From the NCBI GenBank assembly GCA_965216565.1, contig OZ244170.1, positions 704,001 to 768,000 on the forward strand: DNA of 64,000 bases, read 5' to 3'. Position 1 is the stretch's first letter. Every line of letters starts with the position of its first letter. The notes beneath the pieces were generated by a model, which ran no database searches, was not told the DNA's origin, and saw only the letters and a list, made by a program, of their open reading frames with translations. The position numbers and the translations under genes are program-made. Below are positions 5,599 to 56,530 of this stretch, piece by piece. The DNA is from Bythopirellula sp. (GTDB taxonomy: Bacteria; Planctomycetota; Planctomycetia; Pirellulales; Lacipirellulaceae).

Positions 5599-5608
5599 CA
5601 GGCGCTCA

Positions 5609-11691: not shown

Positions 11692-11705
11692 ACCAGTATA
11701 CCAGT
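11692..11705 (-). promoter_or_regulatory. Putative GntR operator 1, overlapping a TATACT -10 box of the catabolic operon
   Basis: ACCAGTATACCAGT, an imperfect palindrome matching the sites at 11871 and 17803. Only a weak -35 (TAGCGA) lies 17 bp upstream on the minus strand. Confidence 0.6.
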
Positions 11706-11851: not shown

Positions 11852-11882
11852 TTGACTAGGTGACTTAGTTCCGGTATACCGG
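11852..11882 (+). promoter_or_regulatory. sigma70-like promoter of gntR with overlapping operator 2
   Basis: TTGACT(11852-57)-N17-TATACC(11875-80); perfect palindrome CCGGTATACCGG at 11871-11882. Confidence 0.7.
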
Positions 11883-12855: not shown

Positions 12856-13971
12856 ATGGACGGTTGTGCAATCAGCAACAAAAACGTTGGTGTCTCTTTC
12901 CTGAGGCCCAACCAGTCGAATGCATCGCGCTTTAGATCGATAGACGCGCGTTTAGCTATTCAACATCCTAGAAAGCAGGCTTTTACGCTAGTTGAATTGC
13001 TAGTGGTGATCGCGATTATTGGCGTGCTGGTCGCATTGCTGCTTCCTGCAGTGCAGTCGGCGCGTGAAGCGGCGAGACGGGCTCAGTGCCTGAATAAGAT
13101 TAAGCAAGCTGGTTTGGCCATGCTGAATTTTGAATCCGCATTCGGCCATTTTCCAGAGGGTACCCGCGGAACGGGGCTCGATACGACTTGCGAGCCTTGG
13201 CCTAGTCTGGCCTTTGGCACTCGTACGCCAAACAATCCCTGTCAAAACGGACCAGGATGGACGATCTTGGTCTTGCCATACTTGGAGCAGCAGGCCCTCT
13301 TCGACCAATTCGACCAGGCCGGCCCGTTTTCGTATATCTATGGACAATGTACGAATAGCGTAAACAATCCGATCCAGCAAACTCCGCTGGGGTTGTGGCA
13401 GTGTACTAGTCATCCTTATGCCCAACCTGACACTCTCCATAGTACCTACTCTGCCTGCACCGGCGGCGGCGATTACGCAGAGCCCGACACAAGTCTCAGC
13501 AGCCCAAGGCTAGGCTGGGAATGCATCACGTTTCGTCCCAGAAGGCCTATCTTTACGAATGGAATTACCGGCTACGATTCCAGAACTACATTCGGTCAGA
13601 TAGAAGACGGCTCTTCCAATACATTTCTGATCGGCGAAACGCATCTCGTCTATCATCCCGATACGCATCCCAACGGGCCTAACTGGTACTCAGGTTGGTC
13701 TTCGTCTTTCGATACCAATAAGAACTTTGGCATCACGATCAATGCGGCTGCAGCTAGCCGTCCAATCAACTTTAGTCCCTTCAACATTGACGAAACTATC
13801 TGGAATCCTCCCGGAGATAGGGCTACCGAATTCGGCAGCTACCATCCTGGCGGAGCGCATTTTGTGTTTGCTGACGGTTCGGCCACATTTATTTCAGAAG
13901 ATGTTGACGAGTTAGCCTACTGGGCATTGGGCAGCAAGGATGACGGTGTACCTACAGGAGTTATACAGTGA
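12856..13971 (+). CDS. DUF1559 prepilin-type N-methylation domain protein
   Basis: AFTLVELLVVIAIIGVLVALLLPAVQSAREAARRAQC; DGSSNTFLIGE; HPGGAHFVFADGS (H-X9-DG). Confidence 0.95.
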   Translation: MDGCAISNKNVGVSFLRPNQSNASRFRSIDARLAIQHPRKQAFTLVELLVVIAIIGVLVALLLPAVQSAREAARRAQCLNKIKQAGLAMLNFESAFGHFPEGTRGTGLDTTCEPWPSLAFGTRTPNNPCQNGPGWTILVLPYLEQQALFDQFDQAGPFSYIYGQCTNSVNNPIQQTPLGLWQCTSHPYAQPDTLHSTYSACTGGGDYAEPDTSLSSPRLGWECITFRPRRPIFTNGITGYDSRTTFGQIEDGSSNTFLIGETHLVYHPDTHPNGPNWYSGWSSSFDTNKNFGITINAAAASRPINFSPFNIDETIWNPPGDRATEFGSYHPGGAHFVFADGSATFISEDVDELAYWALGSKDDGVPTGVIQ

Positions 13972-14396
13972 CTTATCAACGAGCATTTTTGCTAATTGCG
14001 ATGGTGATTTCTATCTCGGCAATAGGGTGCAGCGATGGCGGTGTACCAAGAAATAACCTAGCTGGAACTGTCACCTACGAAGGCAAGCCGGTCCCTGCTG
14101 GCAGAATCATGTTCCGCCCAGACCGCTCTAAGGGAGGAAAGGGGCCAGCCGGATTCGCTCAAATTGTAGATGGTAAATACGATACAAGTAGTTCAGGAAA
14201 AGGCGCTATCACTGGGCCTGTTGAAGTCTCTATTGAAGGCTTTGTTAGTAACCAGCCCTTGGCTCCGGCAATGTTTGTCCCTTACAAGACCACGACGGAT
14301 GTTTCGGGGGACGCCGAAGAGGTCGACTTTGTGGTTCCCGAAGGAACAGCTCCTCCAAAAAGCTGGCGAGTGCCTGCGAAGAGGGACGACGGTTAG
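13968..14396 (+). CDS. Small lipoprotein, typical DUF1559 partner (carboxypeptidase-regulatory-like fold)
   Basis: Lipobox SAIGC; GTVTYEGKPVPAGRIMFRP; 4-bp overlap with the DUF1559 gene. Confidence 0.82.
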   Translation: MTYQRAFLLIAMVISISAIGCSDGGVPRNNLAGTVTYEGKPVPAGRIMFRPDRSKGGKGPAGFAQIVDGKYDTSSSGKGAITGPVEVSIEGFVSNQPLAPAMFVPYKTTTDVSGDAEEVDFVVPEGTAPPKSWRVPAKRDDG

Positions 14397-14521
14397 TTTT
14401 TTAGAGAGTGAATTACCGAATTACAACTTGAAGGCAGCAGCTTAGCTTGCATGGATATTGCCTCTTATTTCAACCAATTGGATTTAACAACTCGCATCGG
14501 CAACAGAAATAGTCAATTACC

Positions 14522-17500
14522 ATGAATTTTCGAAATACCATATTTGCAGTAGCCACGTTCTCGCTAGCCGTGACTGTCACAACTCATTCGAGTCGAGCCC
14601 AAGCCACGCCCAATGTCGTGATGATCATCGCAGACGACGCGGGTTATGCGGACTGGGGGTTCATGAACGGGGTCAACGGTAGTAATCCTACACCGACTGA
14701 TATTCCCACGCCGAACCTCGATGCACTGGCAAATCGTGGCGTTAAGTTCTCCAGAGCTTATGTGCATTCCAATTGCCAGCCAACGCGTGCCGGTTTGGTT
14801 ACGGGCGGATATCCCTATCGCATCGGCAACGAAGTCGTTGGCAATAACTACTACTTGCCATCACAAGGTTTTGCACCTGATGGAGTTCCCGAGGGAGTTC
14901 CAGCGGCTACCGAGACCATCTGGGAACGCATGAAGTCGCAGGGCTATTCCACAGGTGCGATTGGCAAATGGCATTTGGGGCAAACTGAGGGAATCAATCG
15001 ACCGCAACATCAGGGAGTCGACGAATTCTACGGAATCTGGCACGGATCAAGAACCTATAGCGTCGGCAATGCTGGCCTGCCCGCAACGCAGCTATTGCGT
15101 GCAACAACTGTTGATCCTAATGGCTTGGTGAATGATACGGTTGTCGAGACCGATCCGAACAATAACGGCGAATACATCACCAACACTTTTGGTGACTACG
15201 CCGTGCAGTTCATCAACGAACATCACGACGACGCCGATCCTTTCTTCCTGTATCAGTCATTTACCGCCCCGCACACTCCAGTTGGAAATTCGCCTGACAT
15301 TAACGACCCAAGTATTGCTGGACTCACGGGCCAGAGAAAACAGTATGCATCGATGATGCTCACCATGGACAAGGAGATCGGCCGAATCATCGACCGCCTC
15401 GAAGATCCTGACGGAGACGGAAACACAAGTGACAGTATCACCGACGACACCATGATTGTGTTCATCAACGATAATGGTGGTGCCGATGCACTCTCTTCTT
15501 CTCCTAACGGGGCCGATAATGGTGTTCTTCGCCGCGGCAAAGGTACCCCTTGGGAAGGCGGTATTCGTGTACCCATGATTATTGCTGGGGCCGGGGTCAA
15601 TCAAGCTGTCGAGGGAACGACTTACAACAAGCCAGTCCACGGCATCGACATCCTGCCAACCGTGTTTAACGCAGGAGGAGGAACTTTCGGACCTGGCGAC
15701 ACAGGCATAGACGGGGTCGATCTGCTCCCGTTCATCAATGGCACAGACACCAACAACCCGCACGAAACCGTGCTGTATCGGCAACGCTCCCAGTTTGCCT
15801 TGATCAAAGACGATTGGAAACTCGTATGGTCGGGTGGATCCCCTTCGCCGAATCACCACCTTTACAATTTGGGGACGGACATTAGCGAAACCAACAACGT
15901 GGCCGGAGCGAATCCAGCATTAGTGGCTGAATTGCAACGCGACTTGACTGATCACGAAGTCGAGTTCGACAAGCAACGTTACGAAATCCTGGGCCAAACC
16001 TCTGAAACCACGATTAATATTTTCGATCACTTTACTCTCAATCCCACTGATCCTGGGGGCGGAGTCACCGATATCATCGAAGGCTCAACAGGCAATGGCG
16101 ACTTCGAAGATAGCGAAGATCCCGGCAACCCAGCCACAGTGACTGGCGCCATTGACTTTGCAAACACAGCGAACTGGTTCCACGCGAACAATACGGGTCC
16201 CAACGAGGGCATCAACTTTACGAACGACAGCCAGACGAACGGCAGCTCGCAAGGTGGTTCGCGGGCTGGCATGCCATTCCAGAACAGATTTCAGATCAAC
16301 GATTCTGGGTTCACCGTTACCGCAGCTGGCGAAACATTCGATCTAAGCTACGACTTTGGTGCCGGCGGAAACGATCTGAATTGGGATGGCGACGAGTTCT
16401 TGCGAGCGTTCCTTTTCACATCTACGACAGGTGTTGATGGCGATACGGTCGTCGGGGATATGACGGAAGTGGCCGTCGATATCTACAACGTTCCCGATCC
16501 AACTTCGAATCCCCAGTGGACGACCCACTCCTCCACAGCCTTCTACACAACAACCGCGGGCGATATCGGGAAGACGTTCTACTTTGGCATGGAGTTCAAG
16601 GATCCGGCGGTGACGAGCCTGTTGTTCCCACGCATCGATGTCATCGATCTTAGTGTCACTTCACCTGGTGGTGGGGGGGCCTCGGTGTCCGATTGGTCGG
16701 ACAATAACGCCTGGTTTGAAGGAGGCACGAGCAACTCCGAAACTCTGCTAAACGCCGATGCATTTGCTGGGGCCATTCTGGAATTTCCCACAACCGAGAC
16801 CTTCAGCTACGTGTCCAATAACGACATGATCCGCAACACAGGTCTGGAATTTATGCTGAATAAGATCATTCTCAGCGGCAATTTCACTGGTGGGTCTGAT
16901 CAAAACGCTACCATCCAGGGTAACGACTTGCTGTTTACGGATGACTTGAGTGGCGTTGGTCCTCAAATCGCAGTGGACGCCACGAATGGTGGCGGGAACG
17001 GTTTTAGCTACGACATTGATCTCAACTTGGTGATGTACGACGACCTCACGCTCACCGGCAATGGCGACGTGACTGTGACAATCAATGGTGTTGTCAGCAG
17101 CTATTTCGATCCGAGTGGTTTAATCAAAGACGGGACTAGCACGGTGGTGCTAACTGCAGCCAATACTTACGCCGGCGATACCTCGGTGCTGGACGGAACA
17201 CTCTCGCTCCAGAACGACTTCCTGGCCGACTTGGCTGATGTGTTGCTCACTACAGGCGGCATCTTAGACTTAGATTTTATTGGAACCGATACGATCGATT
17301 CACTGTTTATCGATGGCAACTCGCAAGCTGTGGGTACTTGGGGAGGAATCGGTTCGGGAGCGGATAATGAAACGAGCCTGATCACCGGGAGTGGTTTGTT
17401 GATGGTCTCTACGCTAGCTGGTCTGGCGGGCGACTTCGACAACAGTGGCCGAGTCGATGGACTCGACTTTCTCCTGTGGCAGCAAAACCCAAGTGTCGGC

Positions 17501-17635
17501 AGCCTTTCCGACTGGGAAGCCAACTATGGAATGACAGCCCCCATAGCTGCAAATGCCTCTGCGGTTCCAGAGCCTTCGTCAGCTGTTTTGCTCCTAGCGG
17601 GACTGGGGCTCGCCATTTCGCGCCGACGCAGATAG
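14522..17635 (+). CDS. Modular sulfatase: S1 domain + inserted unknown domain + PATR-like repeat + dockerin-like motif + PEP-CTERM
   Basis: PNVVMIIADDAG, CQPTR, GKWH, NDNGG; GLIKDGTSTVVLTAANTYAGDT; GDFDNSGRVDGLDFLLWQ; VPEP-hydrophobic-RRRR. Confidence 0.92.
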   Translation: MNFRNTIFAVATFSLAVTVTTHSSRAQATPNVVMIIADDAGYADWGFMNGVNGSNPTPTDIPTPNLDALANRGVKFSRAYVHSNCQPTRAGLVTGGYPYRIGNEVVGNNYYLPSQGFAPDGVPEGVPAATETIWERMKSQGYSTGAIGKWHLGQTEGINRPQHQGVDEFYGIWHGSRTYSVGNAGLPATQLLRATTVDPNGLVNDTVVETDPNNNGEYITNTFGDYAVQFINEHHDDADPFFLYQSFTAPHTPVGNSPDINDPSIAGLTGQRKQYASMMLTMDKEIGRIIDRLEDPDGDGNTSDSITDDTMIVFINDNGGADALSSSPNGADNGVLRRGKGTPWEGGIRVPMIIAGAGVNQAVEGTTYNKPVHGIDILPTVFNAGGGTFGPGDTGIDGVDLLPFINGTDTNNPHETVLYRQRSQFALIKDDWKLVWSGGSPSPNHHLYNLGTDISETNNVAGANPALVAELQRDLTDHEVEFDKQRYEILGQTSETTINIFDHFTLNPTDPGGGVTDIIEGSTGNGDFEDSEDPGNPATVTGAIDFANTANWFHANNTGPNEGINFTNDSQTNGSSQGGSRAGMPFQNRFQINDSGFTVTAAGETFDLSYDFGAGGNDLNWDGDEFLRAFLFTSTTGVDGDTVVGDMTEVAVDIYNVPDPTSNPQWTTHSSTAFYTTTAGDIGKTFYFGMEFKDPAVTSLLFPRIDVIDLSVTSPGGGGASVSDWSDNNAWFEGGTSNSETLLNADAFAGAILEFPTTETFSYVSNNDMIRNTGLEFMLNKIILSGNFTGGSDQNATIQGNDLLFTDDLSGVGPQIAVDATNGGGNGFSYDIDLNLVMYDDLTLTGNGDVTVTINGVVSSYFDPSGLIKDGTSTVVLTAANTYAGDTSVLDGTLSLQNDFLADLADVLLTTGGILDLDFIGTDTIDSLFIDGNSQAVGTWGGIGSGADNETSLITGSGLLMVSTLAGLAGDFDNSGRVDGLDFLLWQQNPSVGSLSDWEANYGMTAPIAANASAVPEPSSAVLLLAGLGLAISRRRR

Positions 17636-17784
17636 GTCAATCAAGCTTGGAACGGAAATTATCGAGTTGAAATCCACATCGGACTTCCGTTTATGGTATT
17701 TCACCAATGCTGGAGGACGTTTCGAAGAATTCAGCCGTAAATGCTCATTTTTTGCGAGATAGGCAGGATATAACGAACAAATAA

Positions 17785-17816
17785 TTGACACCAATTTTAC
17801 CAACCGGTATACTGGT
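17785..17816 (+). promoter_or_regulatory. Near-consensus sigma70 promoter with overlapping putative GntR operator 3
   Basis: TTGACA(17785-90)-N17-TATACT(17808-13); near-palindrome ACCGGTATACTGGT at 17803-17816. Confidence 0.75.
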
Positions 17817-18074
17817 CTTCGTAATTGGTATCCGTCGAATCTGGAGCAGTCTATGCCTGCGATCAGTTCACGCTCGGAGCATCATACGTCTCATCTTTTT
17901 TCTGTTCACGAACTTAATCTGAGGGCTTCTCACTAAGCAGTTATTCAAAGCTCGATTTCATTGTCCTGCTGATGGATGACGCCCGCACTATTTCATAAAC
18001 AACACTGTTTTTCTCGATGCATCGAATGCATTGGATAACTTATCGTTACACACGGTCGAGGGAAGGAAGATCTA

Positions 18075-19694
18075 ATGAGCAACCTGATAAGACTGGCTCT
18101 CCTAGTCGTATTCATAACTGCCAGTAGCCAAGTTCAGGCGGTTGAGACCATCATCATAAATGGCACGGTTGGTGACGGCGACTTTGAGTTTCCAGAAGAT
18201 CCTAATAACCCTGGTTTAGTGACCGGAGCTGTCCCATTCACGGGGCATCCCAATTGGTTTCACGCCAACAATACCGGGCCAAATGAAACGATTCCTTTCT
18301 CACAAGATTCGCAAACTAACGGCAGTTCTCAGCCTGGTTCACGAGCCGGAATGCCGTTTCAAAATCGGGTTCAAATCAATAACACTGCCTATACCATCAC
18401 CGAGGCAGGAGTGCCATTCAACATCAGCTATGACTTTGGAGCGGGCGGTAACGCTGCCAATTGGACCGGCGACGAAGTAATGCGAACATTCTTGTTCGAG
18501 TCGTCAACGCCAGTCGATCCGAACACGATTGTTGGCGACATCACCGAACTCGGTGCCGATCTTTACAATATCGATCGAGCCAACGATCCCCAGTGGACAA
18601 CTAGATCGACAGATGCCTTCTATACGTCCACCGTTGGCGACATTGGCAAGACCGTGTATTTCGGAATGGAATTTCAAGACCCTGCGGGGCCCCTCCTTTT
18701 CCCCCGTATCGATGTCGTCCGCTTCACTGCGGGGACACCTGAAATCTACGATTTGGAATTCAATGCAGCCCTTAACCCTGCCGATGGCACGACCGCCTGG
18801 CAGCCCAATGTCGATCAAGGTCCGCAACCGGGTGGGCAGCCCACCGAATTCTTCACCTTCGCTGCTGCAGAATCCTTCGCTACGGTCAACGATCCTAGCG
18901 TTCCCGGAATTACGGGTAGCTACAGTGCCGGTGGAGTAGGGCGTCTGCCTGCCCCTTCGGAAGGTGCGGCCGGCCAGGTCGATAGTTCTTTTGAAGTTTG
19001 GTTCAAACCCAATAGTCTATTGGATGGCGAGCAAGTGATCGCTGATTTTGGCGGACTTTCAAATGGTTCGTACATTAGCCTCGATGACAATATCCTCAGT
19101 TTCTACACTACCTCGGGAGGTGCTTCCGGGACGGTATCGACTACGCTAAGCAGCGACGATTGGACACAAGTCGTTGCCAATTGGACCCCCACCGGTGACC
19201 TCGAACTGTTTGTGAATGGGCAGTCTGTTGACACTGCTTCGGGAACAGCGTTCAACAGATTTGGTGGCGGCAATCAGTGGGGACTTGGACAGGTGGGTGG
19301 CGACCCCAATGATGGACTTGCTATCGGAGGCCCGGTCACAACCGATCCCAACAATATCAGCGACGTCGATTTCGCTGGTGAAATTGGCCTATTCCGATAC
19401 TATCCGATTGCCCTTTCGGGTTCTCAAGTTCTAGATTCCTACGATGCCATTGCTGCTGCGGGAATCGCGGGCGATTTCGACGGTAGCGGTGTTGTAGACG
19501 GCCTCGATTTCCTGCTCTGGCAGACCGACCCCAATGTGGGTGATCTGGCTGACTGGGAGAATAACTACGGCACAGGCGGTTTGTCTGCGAATGTCTCTGC
19601 TGTTCCTGAGCCTGGTAGTTTGATGCTGTTTGCTTGTACGGCCATTTCTGTCGCGTTGCGGCGGAAGAGAGGTCTTACTTACTGCTTAAAGTAA
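18075..19694 (+). CDS. PEP-CTERM protein: unknown domain + LamG/ConA-like domain + dockerin-like motif
   Basis: Signal peptide; GMPFQNR...FPRIDV domain; SFEVWFKP...WTQVV...LFVNG...FAGEI; GDFDGSGVVDGLDFLLWQ; VPEP...RRKR. Confidence 0.88.
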   Translation: MSNLIRLALLVVFITASSQVQAVETIIINGTVGDGDFEFPEDPNNPGLVTGAVPFTGHPNWFHANNTGPNETIPFSQDSQTNGSSQPGSRAGMPFQNRVQINNTAYTITEAGVPFNISYDFGAGGNAANWTGDEVMRTFLFESSTPVDPNTIVGDITELGADLYNIDRANDPQWTTRSTDAFYTSTVGDIGKTVYFGMEFQDPAGPLLFPRIDVVRFTAGTPEIYDLEFNAALNPADGTTAWQPNVDQGPQPGGQPTEFFTFAAAESFATVNDPSVPGITGSYSAGGVGRLPAPSEGAAGQVDSSFEVWFKPNSLLDGEQVIADFGGLSNGSYISLDDNILSFYTTSGGASGTVSTTLSSDDWTQVVANWTPTGDLELFVNGQSVDTASGTAFNRFGGGNQWGLGQVGGDPNDGLAIGGPVTTDPNNISDVDFAGEIGLFRYYPIALSGSQVLDSYDAIAAAGIAGDFDGSGVVDGLDFLLWQTDPNVGDLADWENNYGTGGLSANVSAVPEPGSLMLFACTAISVALRRKRGLTYCLK

Positions 19695-19828
19695 TTTGAT
19701 TTCGGCCCTGCTCCGGGGCAGGGGTAGGGCTGAGAAAAAGTTTTTGTGTTTAGTGTTTTGAGTAGAATTGACTGGGGGCTTTTGCCTTTTCAACTATTTT
19801 TTGTTTCTTTTTGAGGGAGACGAGTCTA

Positions 19829-20566
19829 ATGAATTACATGACAAAATTCTTAGCGGCATTGGCTATCTTGGCCATGGCCACCAACGCCCAAGCGGTCAGT
19901 ATCATTGGTGGATCGCTGGGCAACGGTGATTTCAACGCTGGTGGTGGTGGTACTGCAGGTGGAGCTCAAACCTACAACCAAACAGTAAATTGGTTCAACG
20001 CGCAGGGCACGGCTGCTGACGATGACATCAACTTTACTAACTCATCGCAAATGGGTGGCAGCACCGATCCCGATAACGGGACGACTACACGAGGTGGAAT
20101 GCCTTTCCAAAATCGAGTCCAAATCAATGACACTGGCTACACGATCGGAGCCGCGGGTGAGGTATTTAGCTTGAGTTATGATTTCGGAGCTGGTGGTGGT
20201 CCCGCTTCTTGGAACGGTGGTGGTGACGAAACGATGCGGACTTTCTTGTTCACTTCGACCACCCCGATCGACCCTAACACGGTCGAAGCCGATATGACTG
20301 AACTCGGTGGCGACGACTACGACATCGATCGAGCCAACGATGGTCAATGGACGACTCGTTCCGTACCAGTCTTCTACACCTCGACACTCGCCGATGTTGG
20401 TAGCACTGTGTACTTCGGAATGGAGTTCCTAAACGATTCCGGGAACCTGCTTTTCCCACGCATCGACGTTGTCCAACTAGATGTAACACCAATTCCCGAG
20501 CCATCCAGTCTGGCTTTGCTGGGAACGATAGTTGCCGCGGGACTATCCGTGAGACGTCGACGCTAG
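19829..20566 (+). CDS. PEP-CTERM protein consisting only of the unknown domain
   Basis: ATG 19829 follows GAGGGAG; signal peptide; GMPFQNRVQIND...LFPRIDV; IPEPSSLALL...RRRR; no dockerin-like motif. Confidence 0.88.
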   Translation: MNYMTKFLAALAILAMATNAQAVSIIGGSLGNGDFNAGGGGTAGGAQTYNQTVNWFNAQGTAADDDINFTNSSQMGGSTDPDNGTTTRGGMPFQNRVQINDTGYTIGAAGEVFSLSYDFGAGGGPASWNGGGDETMRTFLFTSTTPIDPNTVEADMTELGGDDYDIDRANDGQWTTRSVPVFYTSTLADVGSTVYFGMEFLNDSGNLLFPRIDVVQLDVTPIPEPSSLALLGTIVAAGLSVRRRR

Positions 20567-20605
20567 CCTGAAGAGATTCTCTCTCTGTTTTTGTTGATCT
20601 ACATT

Positions 20606-20640
20606 GGATCGCCCCGCGATTGAGCGGGGCGGTCCTTGTT
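20606..20640 (+). terminator. Putative intrinsic terminator/hairpin
   Basis: GGATCGCCCCGC-loop-GCGGGGCGGTCC followed by TTGTT, 40 bp after the stop codon. Confidence 0.5.
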
Positions 20641-20916
20641 GATCTAAAACGGCACAGTGCCGGCATGCCTTAGCGGTTTGCCAGTTGTTGCTTGTTGTGG
20701 AATCTTTGCGCAATCACTGTCTGTGAACTTTGTTACGTGCAATCTTGTTAAGTTGCATTCGCTGCGCTCATCGAGCGCGTTAGAAACATCTGGTAAGGAG
20801 TTTTGTGACTCATTAAGTCAAATTTAGGGATCAATTTTGAACTAAGCCAAACACTAGCCTGAGAGCAAATCGGAACTTGTCGTTTGGTTGCAAACATTCA
20901 AGCAGGAGTCATACCG

Positions 20917-22542
20917 ATGAAACGTTGCAAGTGGTCAGCTCTATTAGCGATCCTTCTCATGTTGTCGACCAGTCGTGTGCAGGCAATAGAGACCTTTATT
21001 CTTGGAGACGGTTTCGGTGTGAATGGAATCGCATCGTCTGGGAATGGGAACTTCGAGGCAAACTCGGGAACGCTTTCGTTCGCTGATGTCACAAATTGGC
21101 ACAATATCAGTGGCGACGACTCGGCCGTGAATTTTGGCACCAGCTCAGGCATGGTCGGTAGCCCGGAGCCTTCTTCCCAGGGCGCATTCCTTACGGATGC
21201 CAAAGCTGGAAACGACTTTGGTTACACTATTCTTGCAGGTGATGTGGGTGTTCCGTTCAACGCTCGCCTGGCTTTGCATCGATTTGGCGGAGGATATAGC
21301 GGCAGTGAATTTGTGGAAGTGTCTCTTTTTACGTCTACCACCGGTGTCGACCCGAATACTGTGGCCGGTGATCTTACCACACTTGGTTCAGTGAACATCC
21401 CGATTACTGGCAGTTGGGTTCGAGAAGAGAGACTCAACTTTTACTCACCATCGCTCGCTGACGTGGGAAAAACGGTCTATCTAGGAATAGACTTGGAAGA
21501 TCCAAACGGAGTCGGATCAATTTTTCCACGTATTGATGTTGTTCGACTCTCGAAGGGCGCCGCTGATTCATTCGGCTTGCAATTCAACGCGGCTCTAAAT
21601 CCGGTGAATGGTACTGGACTGTGGGAGCCCAATATTGACACCGCCGCCGGAGGCGCATTTTTCCCAACCGAGTTCTTTACCTTTGGCTCCACCACAAGCT
21701 CTGTCGCTGTAAACGATCCTAGCGTTCCGGGTATCACAGCAAGTTACGATGTTGGTGCTCAAGGTCGACAATTCTTCGATCCGAACACAGGTTCCAACGC
21801 CAATGCCCCAGGCTACCAGGGTGGGTTCGATGCCTCGTTCGAAGTCTGGTTTAAACCGGATGATCTCGCTGGTGGCGATCAAATCATTCTCGAAATGGGT
21901 GGTAGTGGAAACGGTTCGTACTTTAGTCTGGAAGATGACGTCCTTTCGTTCTATTCGCGAAGTGGTGGCGTCAATGGTCCGACGCTGCAAACGACGCTCA
22001 CGACGGCAGAGTGGACTCAAGTGGTTGGCACCTGGGAAGGTTCCACCGAGACGCTTCAACTTTTCGTCAATGGTCAGTTTGTTACCAGTGCCGTTGCAGC
22101 CGGAGACCTAGTCGAATGGGCTGGTGGCAACGCCTGGGGCGTAGGCCAGATTGGCTCATCCGATAATCTGACTGGGCTAGACGACATTGCCACCGGTGGG
22201 CCCTTGGGTTCCGAAACGTCTGCCAACGACTTTGTGTTCGATGGTGAGATTGCCATCATCGAGTTGTATGACAAAGTTTTAAGCGCCTCGGAAGTGACCG
22301 ACGCTTACAACGCGGTTACCGGAATTGCCGGTGACTTCGACAACAGCGGCGTTGTCGATGGCCTCGACTTCCTCCTGTGGCAGACAGACACCAGCATTGG
22401 CGATTTGGCCGATTGGGAAGCCAACTATGGTACCGGCGGACTATCGGCGGCGGGCACGGCAGTACCTGAGCCTAGTGCACTCGCTTTGTTGATCCCACTG
22501 CTATGTGGTGCTGCCCTCCGACGAACTCGCGTCAGCGCATAG
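20917..22542 (+). CDS. PEP-CTERM protein: divergent unknown domain + LamG-like domain + dockerin-like motif (paralogue of 18075..19694)
   Basis: ATG 20917 follows AGGAG; GNGNFE, LFTSTTGVDPNTV, DVGKTVY, FPRIDV; SFEVWFKP; GDFDNSGVVDGLDFLLWQ; VPEP. Confidence 0.88.
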   Translation: MKRCKWSALLAILLMLSTSRVQAIETFILGDGFGVNGIASSGNGNFEANSGTLSFADVTNWHNISGDDSAVNFGTSSGMVGSPEPSSQGAFLTDAKAGNDFGYTILAGDVGVPFNARLALHRFGGGYSGSEFVEVSLFTSTTGVDPNTVAGDLTTLGSVNIPITGSWVREERLNFYSPSLADVGKTVYLGIDLEDPNGVGSIFPRIDVVRLSKGAADSFGLQFNAALNPVNGTGLWEPNIDTAAGGAFFPTEFFTFGSTTSSVAVNDPSVPGITASYDVGAQGRQFFDPNTGSNANAPGYQGGFDASFEVWFKPDDLAGGDQIILEMGGSGNGSYFSLEDDVLSFYSRSGGVNGPTLQTTLTTAEWTQVVGTWEGSTETLQLFVNGQFVTSAVAAGDLVEWAGGNAWGVGQIGSSDNLTGLDDIATGGPLGSETSANDFVFDGEIAIIELYDKVLSASEVTDAYNAVTGIAGDFDNSGVVDGLDFLLWQTDTSIGDLADWEANYGTGGLSAAGTAVPEPSALALLIPLLCGAALRRTRVSA

Positions 22543-22581
22543 CACTTTTTGCCACTTGGCATCATTGTTGATAGGTTATTC

Positions 22582-22620
22582 GGGGCCACTCCGTGTATTC
22601 ACGGGGTGGCCCCCCTATTT
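22582..22620 (+). terminator. Strong hairpin, putative terminator
   Basis: GGGGCCACTCCGTG-TATT-CACGGGGTGGCCCC followed by CCTATTT. Confidence 0.5.
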
Positions 22621-22658
22621 GAGTGTAGGGACTGTACTTGAACAGAGACGAAACTGTC

Positions 22659-25307
22659 ATGCAACTTCAATTCAAGGCTGCTCTGTGCACCGTATTTGTT
22701 CTGGCCACCTTTGCTACGAGTTTACAGGACATCGCACACTCTTCTCCGAACGTTATCGTCATCATCACCGACGACGCAGGTTATGCCGACTTCGGATTCA
22801 TGAACGGCCTCAGCGGCGAGACTTCTGAGATTCCGACGCCAAACCTCGATGCCCTGGCAGCCAGAGGCGTAAAATTCTCCCGGGCCTATGTTGCCGCTAA
22901 TTGCCAACCCACCCGAGCAGCGATCGTCACCGGTGGCTATCAACAACGTATCGGCAACGAGAGCGTGGGAAACAATCTCACTTATGCGGTGGATGACGCC
23001 CAGATTGCGACTCGCGGTTTCGAAGGTGTTCCCGTCGAGACCGACACGATTTGGGACCGCATGAAGGGACTTGGATATTCAACAGGAGCCATTGGAAAGT
23101 GGCACCTTGGTCAGCACGCGGATTCAGCCAATGGCCAGGTGCTGGGTAATCGTCCCCAGAATCAAGGCGTGGACGAGTTCTACGGTTTTTGGCACGGAGA
23201 CCGAAACTACAAATTGGGCACCTACGGGGCTAGCCAGGTAACTCGTTCGCTTCGTGAAACAATAGTCGATCCGAATGGCAACGTCACAGATACGGTTGTC
23301 GAGCACGCCCCGAAGCATACCCAGCCAAGCGATGCATACTTGACCGAGGCTCTGGGAGATTACGCAGTCGACTTTATCGATGACCATCACGATGACGCGA
23401 ACCCATTCTTCCTCTACCAATCATTCGGTGCTCCTCACAAGGTTTGGACTGAATCGCCGGATTACAATGACCCGGCAATCACTCACTTATCCGATCCACG
23501 CCGGAAAGTCGCATCGATGATGATCACGATGGACAAGCAAGTAGGCAGAATCCTCGACAAGTTAGACGACCCCGACGGCGATCCAAACACCAGCGACGGC
23601 ATTGCCGACGACACCTTGGTAGTCTTTATCAATGACAACGGCGGGGTTAACAATAACCCACCGGGGACGGATAACGGAGTCTTGAATCGTTGGAAAGGAT
23701 CTCCGCTGGAGGGTGGAATTCGAGTCCCGATGATTGTGGCCGGCGCAGGCGTCAACGCGGGAGTCGAAGGGACTACCTACACTAAGCCTGTTCACGGCAT
23801 CGACATTCTACCGACGGCATTTGCCGCGGCCGGGGGAACTTTTGGTCCCGCAGAAGACAAAATCGATGGCGTAGACATATTGCCTTTTATCAATGGCACT
23901 GACACTTCCAGTCCCCACGATGTTCTAGTCCATCGCTGGCGAGGAAATTTTGCGGTAGTGAAGGGCGACTGGAAACTCGTCAATAGAAAGAACCATAAGT
24001 CGAATCCGAATCAATATGAACTCTACAACGTTACCAATGATATTGGAGAAACGAATGACGTCATCGGGAATGCAACTCATTCAGCATTGGTTGCTGAGTT
24101 GAAGCGTGATTTGACCAACCACGAGGCGTTTTTTGACAAGCCTCGTTATGCAATCCTCAATCGGACTCCAGAGACAGAACCGCTGAACTTGTTCGACCAT
24201 TTCGTCTTTCGTCCTGGCGTCCATACGGATTGGTCTGGCGGTGCTGAGGATGGTGATCTCGAAACCGATCCGGGAGTTTCAACCAATTGGTTTGAAGCGG
24301 GCACTACGAATCAGAATTTACTTTTTCGTTCAGACTCCTTCGCTGGCGCAGTGCTGGAATTCCCCACACATAGCAGCAACTACACAGCAAATAACGACAT
24401 GGTGCGGAAGACTGGCCTAGAATTCATGCTGAACAAAATCATTCTCAGCGGCACGTTCAACAGTGGGTCGAATCGTTCGGCTACGATCCAGGGCAACAAT
24501 CTCTTGTTCACCAACGATCTGAGTGGCGTTGGCCCTCAATTCGCAGTAGATGCCACCGACACTGGTGGCGGTACCTTTACCTACGATATTGACCTGAACC
24601 TGATCATGTACGACGACCTCACATTCACCGGTGATGGCGACGTAACGGTCAATGTCAACGGCGTGGTCAGCAGTTACTTTGATCCCAGCGGACTCATCAA
24701 AGACGGCACCAGCACTGTTGCTCTAACCGCCAACAACACCTACACCGGCGATACCACGGTGCTGGACGGCACGCTTTCTCTCCAGAACGACTTCCTAGCA
24801 GACTTGGCCGATGTGTTTCTCACCACAGGCGGATTTTTGAACTTGGACTTTATTGGGACCGACACTATCGATTCGCTATTTATCGATGGCTCCACCCAAG
24901 CGGTGGGAACCTGGGGAGCCATTGGCTCGGGAGCGGATAACGAGACGAGTCTTATCACCGGTTCGGGGCTCTTGATGGTTTCGACCCTGGCTGGATTGGC
25001 AGGTGATTTTGACGGCAACGGACGCGTCGACGGTTTGGACTTCCTCAAATGGCAGACTGATGGCCTGTCGGCCAGTGATCTGGCCGATTGGGAAGCTAAC
25101 TACGGGATGGTTGCACCTAACACTGCCAACGTGACCACCGTGCCTGAACCAGCGAGCTGGGCGATTCTAGCTATTGCCGCCTGCCTCTTGGGATATGTTC
25201 GGTCTAGGCCTCTCGAATGCAAACTTAGGCCATTTTCCGTATCGACGCATTCACAATCATACCCAGGAAAGCTCACGTCTAGATTGCAAGAGCCTCCTCA
25301 AGTGTAA
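22659..25307 (+). CDS. PEP-CTERM sulfatase, paralogue of 14522..17635 without the inserted domain
   Basis: PNVIVIITDDAG, CQPTR, GKWH; PATR-like repeat; GDFDGNGRVDGLDFLKWQ; VPEP. Start set to ATG 22659. Confidence 0.92.
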   Translation: MQLQFKAALCTVFVLATFATSLQDIAHSSPNVIVIITDDAGYADFGFMNGLSGETSEIPTPNLDALAARGVKFSRAYVAANCQPTRAAIVTGGYQQRIGNESVGNNLTYAVDDAQIATRGFEGVPVETDTIWDRMKGLGYSTGAIGKWHLGQHADSANGQVLGNRPQNQGVDEFYGFWHGDRNYKLGTYGASQVTRSLRETIVDPNGNVTDTVVEHAPKHTQPSDAYLTEALGDYAVDFIDDHHDDANPFFLYQSFGAPHKVWTESPDYNDPAITHLSDPRRKVASMMITMDKQVGRILDKLDDPDGDPNTSDGIADDTLVVFINDNGGVNNNPPGTDNGVLNRWKGSPLEGGIRVPMIVAGAGVNAGVEGTTYTKPVHGIDILPTAFAAAGGTFGPAEDKIDGVDILPFINGTDTSSPHDVLVHRWRGNFAVVKGDWKLVNRKNHKSNPNQYELYNVTNDIGETNDVIGNATHSALVAELKRDLTNHEAFFDKPRYAILNRTPETEPLNLFDHFVFRPGVHTDWSGGAEDGDLETDPGVSTNWFEAGTTNQNLLFRSDSFAGAVLEFPTHSSNYTANNDMVRKTGLEFMLNKIILSGTFNSGSNRSATIQGNNLLFTNDLSGVGPQFAVDATDTGGGTFTYDIDLNLIMYDDLTFTGDGDVTVNVNGVVSSYFDPSGLIKDGTSTVALTANNTYTGDTTVLDGTLSLQNDFLADLADVFLTTGGFLNLDFIGTDTIDSLFIDGSTQAVGTWGAIGSGADNETSLITGSGLLMVSTLAGLAGDFDGNGRVDGLDFLKWQTDGLSASDLADWEANYGMVAPNTANVTTVPEPASWAILAIAACLLGYVRSRPLECKLRPFSVSTHSQSYPGKLTSRLQEPPQV
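25050..25150 (+). repeat. 101-bp direct repeat, copy 1 (dockerin-like/PEP-CTERM coding cassette)
   Basis: Matches 26291..26391 with 2 mismatches by manual comparison. Confidence 0.9.
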
Positions 25308-25321
25308 ATAAGGACTGATCA

Positions 25322-26464
25322 ATGGAACGGCCCCGGATGGCTTTGCCAATTTGTCTTGCTTCGCATGCAATCTTGACGTGCGCAATATCCGCGAATGCTC
25401 AGGACTGGTCTAGTTATTCTGTTCCAGCAAGCGCGGGAACGGGTCAGCATTGGGTACTAGATCCGAATCTGTCTGACGAATTCAACTACGACAGTGCAAC
25501 TCCCGCAGGCCAATCTGAATTCTTCGCTAACTGGCAGGACTGGAAGCCGAACTTCTTTCTCGGTCCCGGAGCGACATACTTTTCGCAGGAGAATTGGTTT
25601 GTGGATAGTGGTGCTATGACCATTTTTGGTTCTCGAGTTCCTCTGGAAGATCAGATCGTCAATACCTCCGATCCCAATTTCACTCGCACCACCTATACCA
25701 GCTTTATCACCTCCAAAGCCAAGCTCCAACCTGGAAGTTACACCGAGGCCATGATCAAGGGAGGTGGCACTGCCTTGTCGACAAATTTTTGGTTGATCGA
25801 CGACGGGGATGTTACTGAAATTGATGTTCTTGAGATCTACGGAGATACCGATTGGTTTCGTAAGCGGCCAAGAACGAATGCGATCTTTCAGATACGTGAT
25901 CAGAACGGAAATCTGATCCAGAAAATTGGGAGTCAGATGACTCATCCCAACAATGATATCAACTACTCACAAACCTGGCACCGCTATGGGGTTTACTGGG
26001 CCAGTACGACAGATCTTGAGTTTTATATCGATGGCAATCTAGTTCGAACCATCAATCTTCCGAGCGAAGTTGTCGACCCTACCGGGAACTACATGAACAG
26101 AGATCTGCGTCTTATCTTCGATATGGAAGCTCATGCTTGGCGCGGAGCAGCGGGAATTCCTTCTGACGCGGAATTGAATGACTGGAGTATCAACAATATG
26201 CAAATCGATTGGGTCCGCACTTATCGTGCTGCAGAACTAAGCGGCGATTTCGACTCTGACGGACGAGTCGATGGCTTGGATTTTCTCAAGTGGCAGACTG
26301 ATGGCCTGTCGGCCAGTGATCTGGCCGATTGGGAAGCTAACTACGGTATGGTTGCACCTAGCACTGCCAACGTGACCACCGTGCCTGAACCGTCCACATT
26401 GGTACTAATCACTCTTTCACTTGGCCTGATTCGGCGACAATCCAATAGAAACAGAAACGTGTAA
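25322..26464 (+). CDS. GH16 (beta-agarase-like) with dockerin-like motif and PEP-CTERM
   Basis: QDWSSYSVPASAG...LSDEFNY...GPGAT, catalytic E-I-D-V-L-E, WHRYGVYW, IDWVRTY; N-terminus resembles GH16_16 beta-agarases. Confidence 0.85.
   Translation: MERPRMALPICLASHAILTCAISANAQDWSSYSVPASAGTGQHWVLDPNLSDEFNYDSATPAGQSEFFANWQDWKPNFFLGPGATYFSQENWFVDSGAMTIFGSRVPLEDQIVNTSDPNFTRTTYTSFITSKAKLQPGSYTEAMIKGGGTALSTNFWLIDDGDVTEIDVLEIYGDTDWFRKRPRTNAIFQIRDQNGNLIQKIGSQMTHPNNDINYSQTWHRYGVYWASTTDLEFYIDGNLVRTINLPSEVVDPTGNYMNRDLRLIFDMEAHAWRGAAGIPSDAELNDWSINNMQIDWVRTYRAAELSGDFDSDGRVDGLDFLKWQTDGLSASDLADWEANYGMVAPSTANVTTVPEPSTLVLITLSLGLIRRQSNRNRNV
26291..26391 (+). repeat. 101-bp direct repeat, copy 2
   Basis: See 25050..25150. 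Confidence 0.9.
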
Positions 26465-26511
26465 GCGACGTAATCCAAAGCATTTGGTAAATTAGAAGAT
26501 GAGATCGACCT

Positions 26512-27564
26512 ATGAATAAGACTAGCTCCAACACGCTCTCGATCATCTGCAATGGTCGCCTTTTGCGGAAGGCTTTCACGCTTGTAGAACTCCTGGTTGT
26601 GATTGCAATTATTGGAGTTCTAATTGCTCTGCTACTTCCCGCTATTCAGTCAGCCCGCGAGTCGGCCCGGCGGATGCAGTGCATCAACAACCTTAAGCAG
26701 GTACTTTTAGCGACCCTTAACTATGAATCGGCCCGTGAAGAACTCCCGAGAGGCTCCCTCCTCATTGAAGAAAACAGTACCGGCGGCTTCGATCGAGTTG
26801 AGCAGCCAGGTGTTTTGGCTACCATACTCCCTTACGCTGAAAACTCGGCGTTGCACGGCCTTGTCGACTTCAACAAGAGCACCAACCAGTTGATACCTGG
26901 AACCACTCAAAATGTTGGCTCGATTGAGGTGGGAATGTACACCTGTCCCAGTGACCCAACAGAGCGAGTTGCGGAAAACCCAAACGCTACCGGCAGTGCC
27001 GTGGGGCTATTGTGGGCTATGACGAGTTACGCCGCGTCCAACGGTTCAGGAAGACTAGCCGACAACTCCGGTTGTTCATGTAACAAGCAACTCGAGTGGA
27101 ATGCATTCGCAGAATATCCCAAAAACCCAAACTTGAACGTAGTCAACGATTTCAAAAAACTCGATGAATACAGCGGACCATTTTCCAGGTTTGCCTTCCC
27201 GACCAAGCTGCGTCAGATAACCGATGGGACCTCGAATACAATATTCTTCGGAGAAGTCCGTCCCGACTGCTCCAATCATGTCCGCCGTGGATGGTTTCAC
27301 ACAAATAACGGCAGCGGTTTGGTAAGTACCATCGTTCCAATCAATTGGGATAGTTGCCAACTAGAAAGCAGTAGCGCTGATGGCTGTAACAAGCCGTGCA
27401 ACTTCAATTCTGAATTAGGCTTTAAATCGCTTCATCCTGGTGGTGCAAACTTCGGATTGGGGGATGGAAGTGCACATTTCATCTCCGAGAGCATTGATAC
27501 TTGGGCCTTTCAGTATTTAGGTGGTAAAGCGGATGGCCAAATTATTGTTGGCCATGAGTTTTAA
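26512..27564 (+). CDS. DUF1559 prepilin-type N-methylation domain protein
   Basis: AFTLVELLVVIAIIGVLIALLLPAIQSARE; CPSD; DGTSNTIFFGE; HPGGANFGLGDGS. Confidence 0.95.
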   Translation: MNKTSSNTLSIICNGRLLRKAFTLVELLVVIAIIGVLIALLLPAIQSARESARRMQCINNLKQVLLATLNYESAREELPRGSLLIEENSTGGFDRVEQPGVLATILPYAENSALHGLVDFNKSTNQLIPGTTQNVGSIEVGMYTCPSDPTERVAENPNATGSAVGLLWAMTSYAASNGSGRLADNSGCSCNKQLEWNAFAEYPKNPNLNVVNDFKKLDEYSGPFSRFAFPTKLRQITDGTSNTIFFGEVRPDCSNHVRRGWFHTNNGSGLVSTIVPINWDSCQLESSSADGCNKPCNFNSELGFKSLHPGGANFGLGDGSAHFISESIDTWAFQYLGGKADGQIIVGHEF

Positions 27565-27628: not shown

Positions 27629-28049
<421 letters not shown>

Positions 28050-49718: not shown

Positions 49719-49763
49719 GGAAGCTGTTGGGGTGTTGAGTGTTTCGTTTTATTTATTCGGCTT

Positions 49764-51575: not shown

Positions 51576-51647
51576 AATTACGCCGTTATCTTTCTAGTTG
51601 AATAATTTGCACGTTGATCCCCTGCCGGAGGGAAAGGCCATTTTTCG

Positions 51648-54161: not shown

Positions 54162-54173
54162 CTTCGTGGAAGC

Positions 54174-54533: not shown

Positions 54534-54538
54534 GAATA

Positions 54539-55147: not shown

Positions 55148-55149
55148 GA

Positions 55150-56409: not shown

Positions 56410-56530
56410 GAAGTTACTTCCCTGATTTTCTCTTCAAGCGTTCGAGCAAGTTATCTGCGGAAATGATAGCTGTCACTACAAAACCTTTGCCTAACACCAT
56501 TTACACTTAACGTGTGCGACAGACCAAAAG

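What the first reader, a model, noticed from the sequence alone, without database searches (positions are those of the whole stretch)
12856..27564. SusC/D-free galactan system built from PEP-CTERM/dockerin-tailed proteins bracketed by DUF1559 pilin-like genes
Seen: six consecutive PEP-CTERM genes (two sulfatases, one GH16, two LamG proteins, one single-domain protein) lie between two DUF1559 genes, divergent from a catabolic operon. No TonB-dependent receptor or SusD is present in the window. Established: Bacteroidota PULs use SusC/D; PEP-CTERM is an exosortase-linked sorting signal; DUF1559 genes are abundant in planctomycetes with unclear function. Inference: this is a planctomycete-specific surface apparatus that binds, desulfates and cuts the polymer, with DUF1559 plus lipoprotein as possible capture or uptake components.
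Basis: partly seen in the sequence, partly recalled or inferred. Interest (0 to 1): 0.8.

Follow-up and report, generated by a model that had tools for sequence, protein, structure and literature searches.

The report
Carrageenan regulon with dedicated pilin module
A planctomycete with no detectable TonB/SusCD sugar importer keeps, beside its genes for likely digesting the red-seaweed polymer carrageenan and likely under the same genetic switch, a pilin-like gene with a predicted partner lipoprotein and six likely surface proteins, four sharing a new predicted sugar-binding domain, which would give a direct test of how these bacteria take up polysaccharides.

Summary
Observation confirmed, with corrections. 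The block is the surface half of a kappa/beta-carrageenan locus (DauA/B, S1_19B orthologue, GH16_13-like pair, GH127). No TonB receptor, TonB or SusD was found genome-wide. New here: (1) a palindrome, likely the GntR operator, precedes the catabolic operon, the GntR-DUF1559 genes and the PEP-CTERM genes; its only other strict copies lie upstream of the genome's one GH167; it recurs in four related loci. (2) Four proteins share an unannotated ~190-residue domain X with a predicted CBM-like fold, fused elsewhere to four carrageenan enzyme types. (3) The first DUF1559 belongs to a clade found in the same 4 of 120 family genomes as X, and is predicted to bind its lipoprotein (0.77 vs control 0.00). 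Corrections: the tails fail the dockerin test; the second DUF1559 and GH16 are absent from three syntenic loci; X is not planctomycete-specific; DUF1559/PEP-CTERM cassettes recur genome-wide (29 of 63). The scan already noted DUF1559-lipoprotein cassettes here and in another genome, and SusCD-less planctomycete carrageenan loci are published. Uptake by the pilin is inferred (about 40%); export adaptor and adhesion remain open.

The parts
1..1175 (-). 5' part of sugar-porter MFS gene (continues left of the window, followed by GH127, sulfatases, FG-GAP proteins, galactonate dehydratase and transporter down to about 14 kb left of the window)
1211..2704 (-). GH16 with signal peptide, paralogue of the next gene
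2701..4164 (-). GH16_13-like beta/kappa-carrageenase (best PDB match 9ijc/9int, E 2e-55)
   Evidence: 9INT named as GH16_13 in PMC13168452
4168..5676 (-). S1 sulfatase, no PEP-CTERM tail
5609..7009 (-). [quoted passage not shown]
7093..8181 (-). 2-keto-3-deoxy-sugar kinase (DauC-like)
8220..8939 (-). KDPG/KDPGal aldolase (DauD-like)
8952..10352 (-). aldehyde dehydrogenase, best PDB match 6pnu/6pop (E 1e-111), entries of the carrageenan paper that solved DauA
10342..11508 (-). enolase-superfamily cycloisomerase (DauB-like; assignment by family and position)
11693..11704 (.). likely GntR operator 1 (palindrome), upstream of the catabolic operon
11871..11882 (.). likely GntR operator 2, upstream of gntR-DUF1559a-lipoprotein
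12007..12753 (+). GntR/FCD regulator
12856..13971 (+). DUF1559a: type IV pilin helix, large inserted head, H-X9-DG C-terminus; clade tied to this carrageenan locus
13968..14396 (+). predicted lipoprotein (Cys21), no Pfam family; predicted partner of DUF1559a
14522..17635 (+). S1_19-like sulfatase + domain X (about residues 518-713) + PATR + EF-hand-like loop + PEP-CTERM
17785..17815 (+). best sigma-70-type promoter match of the block (11 of 12), its -10 box inside likely operator 3 (17804-17815)
18075..19694 (+). domain X + LamG + EF-hand-like loop + PEP-CTERM; terminator-like hairpin at 19700-19735
19811..20566 (+). domain X alone + PEP-CTERM (no EF-hand-like loop); terminator-like hairpin at 20606-20635
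20884..22542 (+). divergent domain X + LamG + EF-hand-like loop + PEP-CTERM
22638..25307 (+). second S1_19-like sulfatase + PATR + EF-hand-like loop + PEP-CTERM (no X; about 30 extra residues after the tail); present in 1 of 3 syntenic loci
25322..26464 (+). GH16 closest to beta-agarases, EIDVLE motif intact, PEP-CTERM; absent from the 3 syntenic loci
26512..27564 (+). DUF1559b: separate, wider clade, often but not only beside red-algal galactan genes; no lipoprotein partner here
27975..28049 (-). tRNA-Val whose 3' end faces the locus (possible insertion site; no duplicated end found)

Best explanation
This block is the likely cell-surface module of a likely GntR-repressed kappa/beta-carrageenan regulon, in which PEP-CTERM proteins are predicted to bind and desulfate the polymer and a locus-specific DUF1559 pilin with its predicted lipoprotein partner would capture the products for uptake in place of SusC/D. 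Steps: (1) shown in sequence: pathway genes, no TBDR/TonB/SusD, shared palindromes, a DUF1559 clade that travels with the pathway. (2) Inferred: an anhydrogalactose-derived signal lifts GntR from three operators here and two at the remote GH167. (3) Inferred: Sec export and exosortase processing place the six proteins at the envelope; X and LamG domains hold the polymer. (4) Inferred from family knowledge: the S1_19-like enzymes strip galactose-4-sulfate first, because the genome's GH16 set has no kappa-carrageenase match and GH16_13 enzymes need a desulfated -1 sugar. (5) Predicted: DUF1559a binds the lipoprotein through the residues after its H-X9-DG motif. (6) Least certain: DUF1559a acts as a substrate-matched minor pilin of one of the genome's type IV filament machines and brings chains or oligomers through a secretin into the periplasm, where S1_19B, GH16_13 and GH167 work; MFS import, GH127 and DauA-D finish.
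For: Pathway; five GH16 in the genome, two glucanase-like; GH16_13 need for desulfation (PMC13168452 passages; PMC6923384 passages). No TBDR/TonB/SusD; 1 exosortase, 5 secretin genes over cut-off, 10 T2SSE ATPases of which 2 have a PilT-like His-box (PilT motif recalled). Operator: strict motif 5 times in 5.2 Mb, 3 here and 2 at 528-561 bp upstream of the only GH167 homologue; reversed-pattern control 1; overlaps the best -10 box; loose form at matching places in G033 (4), G228 (2), G281 (3) and in the differently built G307 locus. All 5 DauB-like loci found in 120 family genomes have a DUF1559 + lipoprotein pair. DUF1559a relatives at E<1e-55 in 4 of 120 genomes, the four that carry X; 8 of its 13 closest database relatives share a longest-contig length with an X protein. 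Pilin scaffold: 21 of 23 structural matches are pilins/pseudopilins, best Z 4.5. Complex 0.77 vs best control 0.00, partner pLDDT >=80, runs share >=54% of contacts; mark reached by 116 of 157 solved and 2 of 215 mismatched pairs, counts only rough here. X: pLDDT 91 beta-sandwich, Z 12.5 to CBM4-2, 11.3 to a porphyran CBM; 23 of 38 X proteins over 450 aa carry a catalytic domain and all 23 are of four types present in this regulon. A cobalamin riboswitch sits directly upstream of another DUF1559 gene in this TBDR-less genome.
Against: Nothing here shows transport, surface exposure or sugar binding. Four of the five loci descend from one locus, so co-occurrence is not independent. DUF1559 next to PEP-CTERM is a genome-wide habit (29 of 63). 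A lipid-anchored partner on the pilin head is hard to square with travel along an extending filament. The DUF1559 head has no fold match that suggests a sugar site. X's fold is shared by many non-CBM domains (EphA, HpiC1 cyclase Z 13.4). In Akkermansia PEP-CTERM proteins were more abundant in intracellular than outer-membrane fractions (PMC4960237 passage). The operator core resembles a -10 box, 15 of 19 loose matches genome-wide are intergenic, the GH167 homologue of G228 has no such site, and two strict matches in G281 lie in coding sequence. No operator precedes 22638-27564, and two hairpins split the block. 38 of 120 family genomes do carry TonB plug domains. The PEP GH16 looks like an agarase although no GH50/GH86 homologue was found in the genome.
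Confidence: 0.4

Rival explanations
1. DUF1559a and its lipoprotein are a cargo-specific type II secretion adaptor (a GspK-like tip pseudopilin) that exports the neighbouring PEP-CTERM proteins; sugar enters by another, unlinked route.
For: 29 of 63 DUF1559 genes abut PEP-CTERM genes; best NCBIfam hit of the N-terminus is GspG and GspK, EpsG and PulG are among the structural matches; five GspE/PilB-type ATPases and five secretins. T2SS export of GlyGly-CTERM proteins is a recalled precedent, not checked here.
Against: 34 of 63 DUF1559 genes have no PEP-CTERM gene within 500 bp and 20 none within 5 kb; in G307 the pair heads an operon with GH2, RhaT and DauB rather than PEP-CTERM genes; it leaves uptake in a TBDR-less cell unexplained.
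Confidence: 0.22
2. DUF1559a is an adhesin subunit that only attaches the cell to carrageenan-rich algal walls; degradation is extracellular and small oligomers pass through general porins.
For: Substrate-matched clade and co-regulation fit adhesion equally well; a type IV-like pilus for glycan attachment is proposed for Akkermansiaceae MUL2 (PMC13174399 passages).
Against: A cobalamin-riboswitch-controlled DUF1559 gene fits nutrient capture better than surface adhesion; most depolymerases of the locus lack a surface tail.
Confidence: 0.2
3. DUF1559a never enters a filament: it stays anchored in the inner membrane by its pilin helix and, with the lipoprotein, forms a periplasmic receptor or scaffold for oligosaccharides; PEP-CTERM proteins are periplasmic too.
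For: Predicted stable complex with a lipoprotein; N_methyl + SBP_bac_10 proteins of Tuwongella fall in detergent-soluble membrane fractions (PMC8567305 passages); PEP-CTERM location unproven.
Against: Canonical prepilin cleavage site with Glu5 invariant in 119 of 119 aligned relatives suggests assembly into a filament.
Confidence: 0.13
4. The DUF1559 genes are passengers of a mobile carrageenan island with no role in its function.
For: Patchy spread (0 of 26 same-genus genomes carry DauB or X), low GC (50.8 vs 53.6%; 6 of 124 windows as low) and a flanking tRNA.
Against: Kept at 50-59% identity through a rearrangement (G228) and a duplication beside another GH16 (G281); a different DUF1559 clade fills the same place under the same regulator in G307.
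Confidence: 0.05

Closest known systems
Carrageenan utilization systems of Zobellia galactanivorans (Ficko-Blean 2017, PMC5698469) and Pseudoalteromonas fuliginea CarPUL (Hettle 2019, PMC6923384)
   Same: DauA-D-like core, GH127, S1_19 sulfatases, GH16_13, GH167, MFS, regulon with remote members. Section 11 of PMC5698469 already reports such loci without susCD in other phyla, Planctomycetes included, and lists GntR-like regulators in its figure key.
   Different: Those systems use SusCD or a TBDT; here none exists in the genome, and the locus holds a DUF1559 pilin, a lipoprotein and PEP-CTERM proteins with domain X. No GH16_17 kappa-carrageenase match.
Bacteroidota SusC/SusD pair
   Same: Works like it in gene logic: many paralogues per genome, locus-matched clades, a lipoprotein partner, first genes after the regulator.
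   Different: No homology; pilin scaffold instead of a beta-barrel; no TonB.
Type IV pilins / type II pseudopilins (GspG, GspK); Akkermansia MUL2 pilus; the planctomycete 'fishing rod' hypothesis (Boedeker 2017, seen only through review PMC12078418)
   Same: Prepilin motif, long N-terminal helix, pilin-like C-terminal sheet; assembly ATPases and secretins in the genome; proposed glycan capture.
   Different: A ~230-residue inserted head with no fold match, 63 paralogues, a predicted lipoprotein partner; the passages read name no gene family for the fishing rod. A source name 'DUF1559 family PulG-like putative transporter' shows that a transport role has been guessed in annotation.
Beta-sandwich CBMs (CBM4, CBM16, CBM22, porphyran-binding module 8xmz)
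   Same: Jelly-roll fold of X, appended to polysaccharide enzymes, sometimes in tandem.
   Different: No sequence match of X in Pfam, NCBIfam or PDB; 10-14% identity in structural alignments; ligand untested.
PEP-CTERM/exosortase sorting (Haft 2006)
   Same: Signal peptide, VPEP motif, hydrophobic helix, basic tail; one exosortase.
   Different: About 243 targets by my pattern, many enzymatic; final location unknown.

Membership tests
Carrageenan utilization locus | dagA (GH127) plus dauA, dauB, dauD core | tested here: met
   GH127 Pfam, DauA-like best hit 6pnu/6pop, enolase-family cycloisomerase and aldolase; dauB by family and position only
Carrageenan utilization locus | carrageenan-specific sulfatases and GH16/GH167 | tested here: met
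   S1_19B orthologue E 1e-176; GH16_13-like; GH167 homologue E 1e-68 to P0070, itself matching 6ptm/9whd
Carrageenan utilization locus | induction by and growth on carrageenan | not testable with these tools
   no expression data examined
Bacteroidota PUL (SusC/D) | susC/susD pair or TBDT | tested here: not met
   (genome 94% complete, one contig)
PEP-CTERM/exosortase targets | signal peptide, PEP motif, TM helix, basic tail; exosortase in genome | tested here: met
   (Pfam over cut-off for 3 of 6, below cut-off for 2, motif by eye for 1)
PEP-CTERM/exosortase targets | processing and surface display | not testable with these tools
   none
Type I dockerin | two Ca-binding repeats, PF00404 match | tested here: not met
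   no PF00404 at E<=0.01 in the six proteins; none of 33 genome matches in the block, 150 of 208 candidates scored; one canonical loop only
Type I dockerin | cohesin partner | tested here: not met
   no PF00963 in the genome
Type IV pilin / pseudopilin (DUF1559a) | prepilin cleavage motif with Glu5 and long N-terminal helix | tested here: met
Type IV pilin / pseudopilin (DUF1559a) | pilin globular fold | tested here: inconclusive
   21 of 23 matches are pilins but best Z 4.5, rmsd 3.7, 122 aligned; Foldseek none at E<=0.001
Type IV pilin / pseudopilin (DUF1559a) | assembly into a filament | not testable with these tools
   machinery genes present
Known CBM family (domain X) | sequence match to a described family | tested here: not met
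   Pfam, NCBIfam, PDB profile search; CAZy itself not available
Known CBM family (domain X) | beta-sandwich CBM fold | tested here: met
   Z 12.5, rmsd 3.1, 152 aligned to CBM4-2 4bj0; shared with non-CBM domains
Known CBM family (domain X) | carbohydrate binding | not testable with these tools
   only the partner census
Sulfatase subfamily S1_19 (two PEP sulfatases) | closest to S1_19 members, CxPxR intact | tested here: inconclusive
   top hits all S1_19 and motif intact, but far more distant (E 3e-76) than the true S1_19B orthologue; SulfAtlas not available
Beta-agarase GH16_16 (25322-26464) | closest to agarases, catalytic ExDxxE, agar pathway in genome | tested here: inconclusive
   no GH50/GH86 homologue and only one anhydrogalactose pathway; GH117 not tested

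The most novel reading that the evidence does not exclude
DUF1559 proteins are the planctomycete replacement for SusC/D: a family of substrate-matched tip pilins, each with its own lipoprotein, that a retractile type IV filament uses to pull specific nutrients (here carrageenan, elsewhere cobalamin) through a secretin, fed by PEP-CTERM surface enzymes bearing a new carrageenan-binding module (domain X).
Probability: 0.27. Interest if true: 0.92.

Novelty: new variant of a known kind. Interest (0 to 1): 0.64.

Why it matters
How planctomycetes bring polysaccharides across the outer membrane without SusC/D is open, and DUF1559 is one of their most expanded families with no function (41 or more prepilin-motif genes per genome; PMC8567305). 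This locus ties one DUF1559 clade to one defined substrate, one regulator and one predicted operator, so induction, binding and knockout tests have a known input. Source names place both the clade and domain X in a cultured species (Adhaeretor mobilis; P0095, P0101, P0040, P0048). Domain X is a candidate new CBM family for carrageenan, and the two surface sulfatases are candidate polymer-level desulfating enzymes.

Tried and rejected
Dockerin/cohesin scaffold: rejected. Two-DUF1559 bracket as a conserved design or tandem duplicate: rejected; the two are 35% identical, in separate clades, and the second is missing from three syntenic loci. TBDR just outside the window or elsewhere: not found. 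DUF1559b as carrageenan-specific: not supported; of 21 loci examined 5 have GH86, GH50-type or anhydrogalactose genes, 3 GH110/beta-helix genes, the rest other or no glycan genes (only selected large neighbours were scanned; no background rate measured). tRNA-targeted island: no duplicated tRNA end found. Fold search of DUF1559a gave no known fold for the head, which excludes nothing. The search for related loci gave little: 2 loci for DUF1559a, neither shown to be an orthologue, 3 short loci for X. A class-wide DauB search (3 of 371) added no independent locus. G307's PEP-tailed GH16 looks glucanase-like and is not counted as a carrageenase. ESM Atlas gave only leads. No earlier scan note matched domain X by sequence. 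The Kiritimatiellia preprint 10.64898/2026.10.06.756941 had none of six terms. DUF1559a-X binding was not tested (one complex job). No read-based expression search was run.

Full report
Observation. The genes are as described. After a GntR/FCD regulator (12007-12753) come DUF1559a (12856-13971), a predicted lipoprotein (13968-14396), six PEP-CTERM genes and DUF1559b (26512-27564). A tRNA-Val follows. The genome is one 5.21-Mb contig, 94% complete. It has no match to the TonB receptor barrel, plug, TonB C-terminus or either of two SusD families, while the controls rang. It has one exosortase, five secretin genes over cut-off and ten T2SSE ATPases, two with a PilT-like His-box (motif recalled). 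Plug domains occur in 38 of 120 family genomes, so their absence is not family-wide.

How special is the layout? 65 Pfam matches give 63 DUF1559 ORFs; my pattern finds 243 PEP-CTERM proteins. 29 of 63 DUF1559 genes lie within 500 bp of one, against 8.1 +/- 2.6 (maximum 19) in 1000 rotations. 20 of 34 sulfatases lie within 10 kb of a DUF1559 gene, against 8.0 +/- 3.6. The block is thus one of many such cassettes. The scan noted this before in this genome (e1-9938452, e1-9829741) and in another (e1-9724971); these notes were leads. I confirmed the riboswitch position and ran my own complex prediction.

The tails are not dockerins. Five of six proteins have one EF-hand-like loop before the PEP motif and a degenerate second half. 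Pfam Dockerin_1 does not score on them, none of its 33 genome matches is in the block (150 of 208 candidates scored), and there is no cohesin.

Substrate. [quoted passage not shown] Both PEP-CTERM sulfatases have S1_19 enzymes as top hits but are distant (E 3e-76 and 7e-69). The genome has five GH16: two glucanase-like, the two above and the PEP-tailed one. The last is closest to beta-agarases, yet no GH50 or GH86 homologue and no second anhydrogalactose pathway were found (GH117 untested). As GH16_13 enzymes need 4-sulfate removed first, sulfatases at the surface fit a desulfate-then-cut order (inference).

Regulation. Reading the intergenic DNA showed a palindrome at 11693, 11871 and 17804. 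Its strict form occurs five times in the genome; the other two are tandem, 528-561 bp upstream of the only GH167 homologue, 1.95 Mb away. The motif was defined on the three local sites, so the GH167 sites are the out-of-sample test; a random site would fall within 700 bp of a given gene start with probability about 1e-4. The third site contains the -10 box of the best promoter match in the block. The loose form recurs at matching positions in G033, G228 and G281 and as a perfect palindrome between the GntR orthologue and a DUF1559 gene in G307. Against: the strict motif appears 0-4 times by chance in most family genomes, its core resembles a -10 box, G228's GH167 homologue lacks it, two G281 matches are coding, and no site precedes 22638-27564.

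Domain X. Four proteins share about 190 residues with no Pfam, NCBIfam or PDB sequence match; 47 representatives at 50% identity exist among 1.84 billion. The model (44 sequences, pLDDT 91) is a beta-sandwich: Z 13.6 to a GH51 accessory domain, 13.4 to a cyclase, 12.5 to CBM4-2, 11.3 to a porphyran-binding CBM, 11.2 to CBM16; Foldseek ranks Eph ligand-binding domains first. Of 38 X proteins over 450 aa, 15 carry this sulfatase type, 3 the type of 4168-5676, 2 a GH16 like the left pair, 3 GH167, 7 LamG and 8 none of these; Pfam found no catalytic family in those 8 (GH167 assignment). Sources assign some to Roseibacillus, Luteolibacter, Opitutaceae and Pontiellaceae. X is therefore a candidate new carrageenan CBM of PVC bacteria; binding is untested.

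Conservation. X was found in 4 of 401 order genomes. All three others carry the catabolic genes, GntR, a DUF1559a orthologue (50-56%), the lipoprotein and the sulfatase-X gene, in G228 in a different order; none has the PEP GH16 or DUF1559b there, and only G281 has the second sulfatase. DUF1559a relatives at E<1e-55 occur in the same 4 of 120 family genomes; a second G281 copy lies beside a PEP-tailed GH16. In the protein database 13 relatives at 51-59% stand apart from the rest (E<1e-92 vs >1e-62); 8 share a longest-contig length with an X protein (indirect). DauB-like genes were found in 5 of 120 family genomes; the fifth, G307, has a DUF1559b-clade gene plus lipoprotein at the head of an operon. 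A class-wide search added none. DUF1559b's clade is wider (26 of 120); of 21 loci examined 5 have red-algal galactan markers. A quick tree (93 rows; own paralogues outside 270-470 aa or without the pilin motif left out) puts a and b in separate clades, all five marker loci in b's subclade (support 99). Four of five loci share descent, and none of 26 same-genus genomes has the pathway, so the locus is probably mobile: GC 50.8 vs 53.6%, tRNA at the edge, no duplicated end.

DUF1559a and its lipoprotein. The model (119 sequences, pLDDT 92) has a 54-residue N-terminal helix; 21 of 23 structural matches are pilins or pseudopilins spanning helix and C-terminal sheet, best Z 4.5, Foldseek none at E<=0.001. 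It reads as a pilin scaffold with a large inserted head. The complex with the lipoprotein scored 0.77 (three runs 0.77-0.80) against 0.00 for three controls; partner pLDDT at least 80, runs share at least 54% of contacts; the mark was reached by 116 of 157 solved and 2 of 215 mismatched pairs, and these counts hold only roughly as my alignments were used. The interface centres on residues 305-311, just after the H-X9-DG motif. This supports binding; it does not show it.

What is known. SusCD-less carrageenan loci in Planctomycetes are published (PMC5698469, passages and section 11; supplements not read and may show such genes). Pilus-mediated polysaccharide uptake is a standing hypothesis (review PMC12078418, passages; Boedeker 2017 itself not read), and a type IV-like pilus for glycan attachment is proposed in Akkermansiaceae (PMC13174399, passages). 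DUF1559 proteins are expressed, membrane-associated and often flanked by signal-peptide genes (PMC8567305, passages). PEP-CTERM location is unsettled (PMC4960237, passages). Searches found no paper with both DUF1559 and PEP-CTERM, four with DUF1559 (listings only) and four with its synonyms (one read in passages); (listings) showed none linking the family to a carrageenan locus or describing X. The library lacks most subscription journals. An annotation name already calls the family a putative transporter.

Verdict. A real carrageenan locus of a known kind (about 90%), with a new surface module: a likely operator that joins DUF1559 and PEP-CTERM genes to the pathway (about 75%), a candidate new CBM family (about 60%), and a locus-specific pilin-lipoprotein pair (binding about 75%). 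That the pilin takes up the sugar is my best single reading (40%), ahead of export adaptor (22%), adhesion only (20%), periplasmic receptor (13%) and passenger (5%). Interest 0.64: the cassette idea is not new to this scan, but this locus gives it a defined substrate, regulator and test.

Noticed in passing
G000:C1:2674651-2677617 (L040): The genome's only GH167 homologue lies 1.95 Mb from the locus among four PEP-CTERM genes, with two tandem copies of the operator upstream; three of those PEP-CTERM proteins have no Pfam family at E<=1e-5.
   Followed up: partly
G000:C1:3592097-3595218 (L039): Cobalamin riboswitch directly upstream of a DUF1559 gene and two PEP-CTERM genes (lead from an earlier scan note; position confirmed, binder identity not tested).
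   Followed up: partly
L063/L064 (G307:C1:1253820-1277314): Differently built anhydrogalactose locus: same GntR (66%) and a perfect operator, DUF1559b-clade gene, lipoprotein, GH2, RhaT, DauB-like gene, and PEP-CTERM beta-helix proteins.
   Followed up: partly
L012:8183-13943 (left of the window): Two FG-GAP/ASPIC-UnbV proteins flanking a FAD-dependent oxidoreductase inside the carrageenan locus; the oxidoreductase has 70-74% identical relatives beside GH16/GH86 genes in G444, G241 and G281. Role unknown.
   Followed up: no
P0046, P0061, P0062, P0086, P0064, P0075, P0008: Domain X occurs with interchangeable C-terminal tails: PEP-CTERM, a two-repeat dockerin-like tail (PF00404 hits for P0061, P0062) and other short tails.
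   Followed up: no
window 25002-25150 and 26243-26391: The tail-coding DNA of the second sulfatase and the GH16 is 91% identical over 149 nt, suggesting the GH16 recently acquired its tail by local duplication.
   Followed up: no
window 25200-25307: The second sulfatase reads about 30 codons past the usual end of its PEP-CTERM tail.
   Followed up: no
L037 (G281:C1:2190053-2190727): The X+LamG gene is represented only by a 224-aa C-terminal piece in G281; apparently broken.
   Followed up: no
L128, L129, L132: A tight DUF1559b subclade sits in a conserved cassette with PEP-CTERM and beta-helix/GH110 genes in three genomes: another possible substrate-matched pilin clade.
   Followed up: partly
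G000 whole genome: About 243 PEP-CTERM proteins by my pattern but a single exosortase; 20 of 34 sulfatases lie within 10 kb of a DUF1559 gene against 8.0 +/- 3.6 in rotations.
   Followed up: partly
window 27975-28049, 35593-36050, 60979-61052, 48042-59673: tRNA-Val, RNase P RNA, tRNA-Glu and an NADH dehydrogenase-like gene run; ordinary.
   Followed up: no
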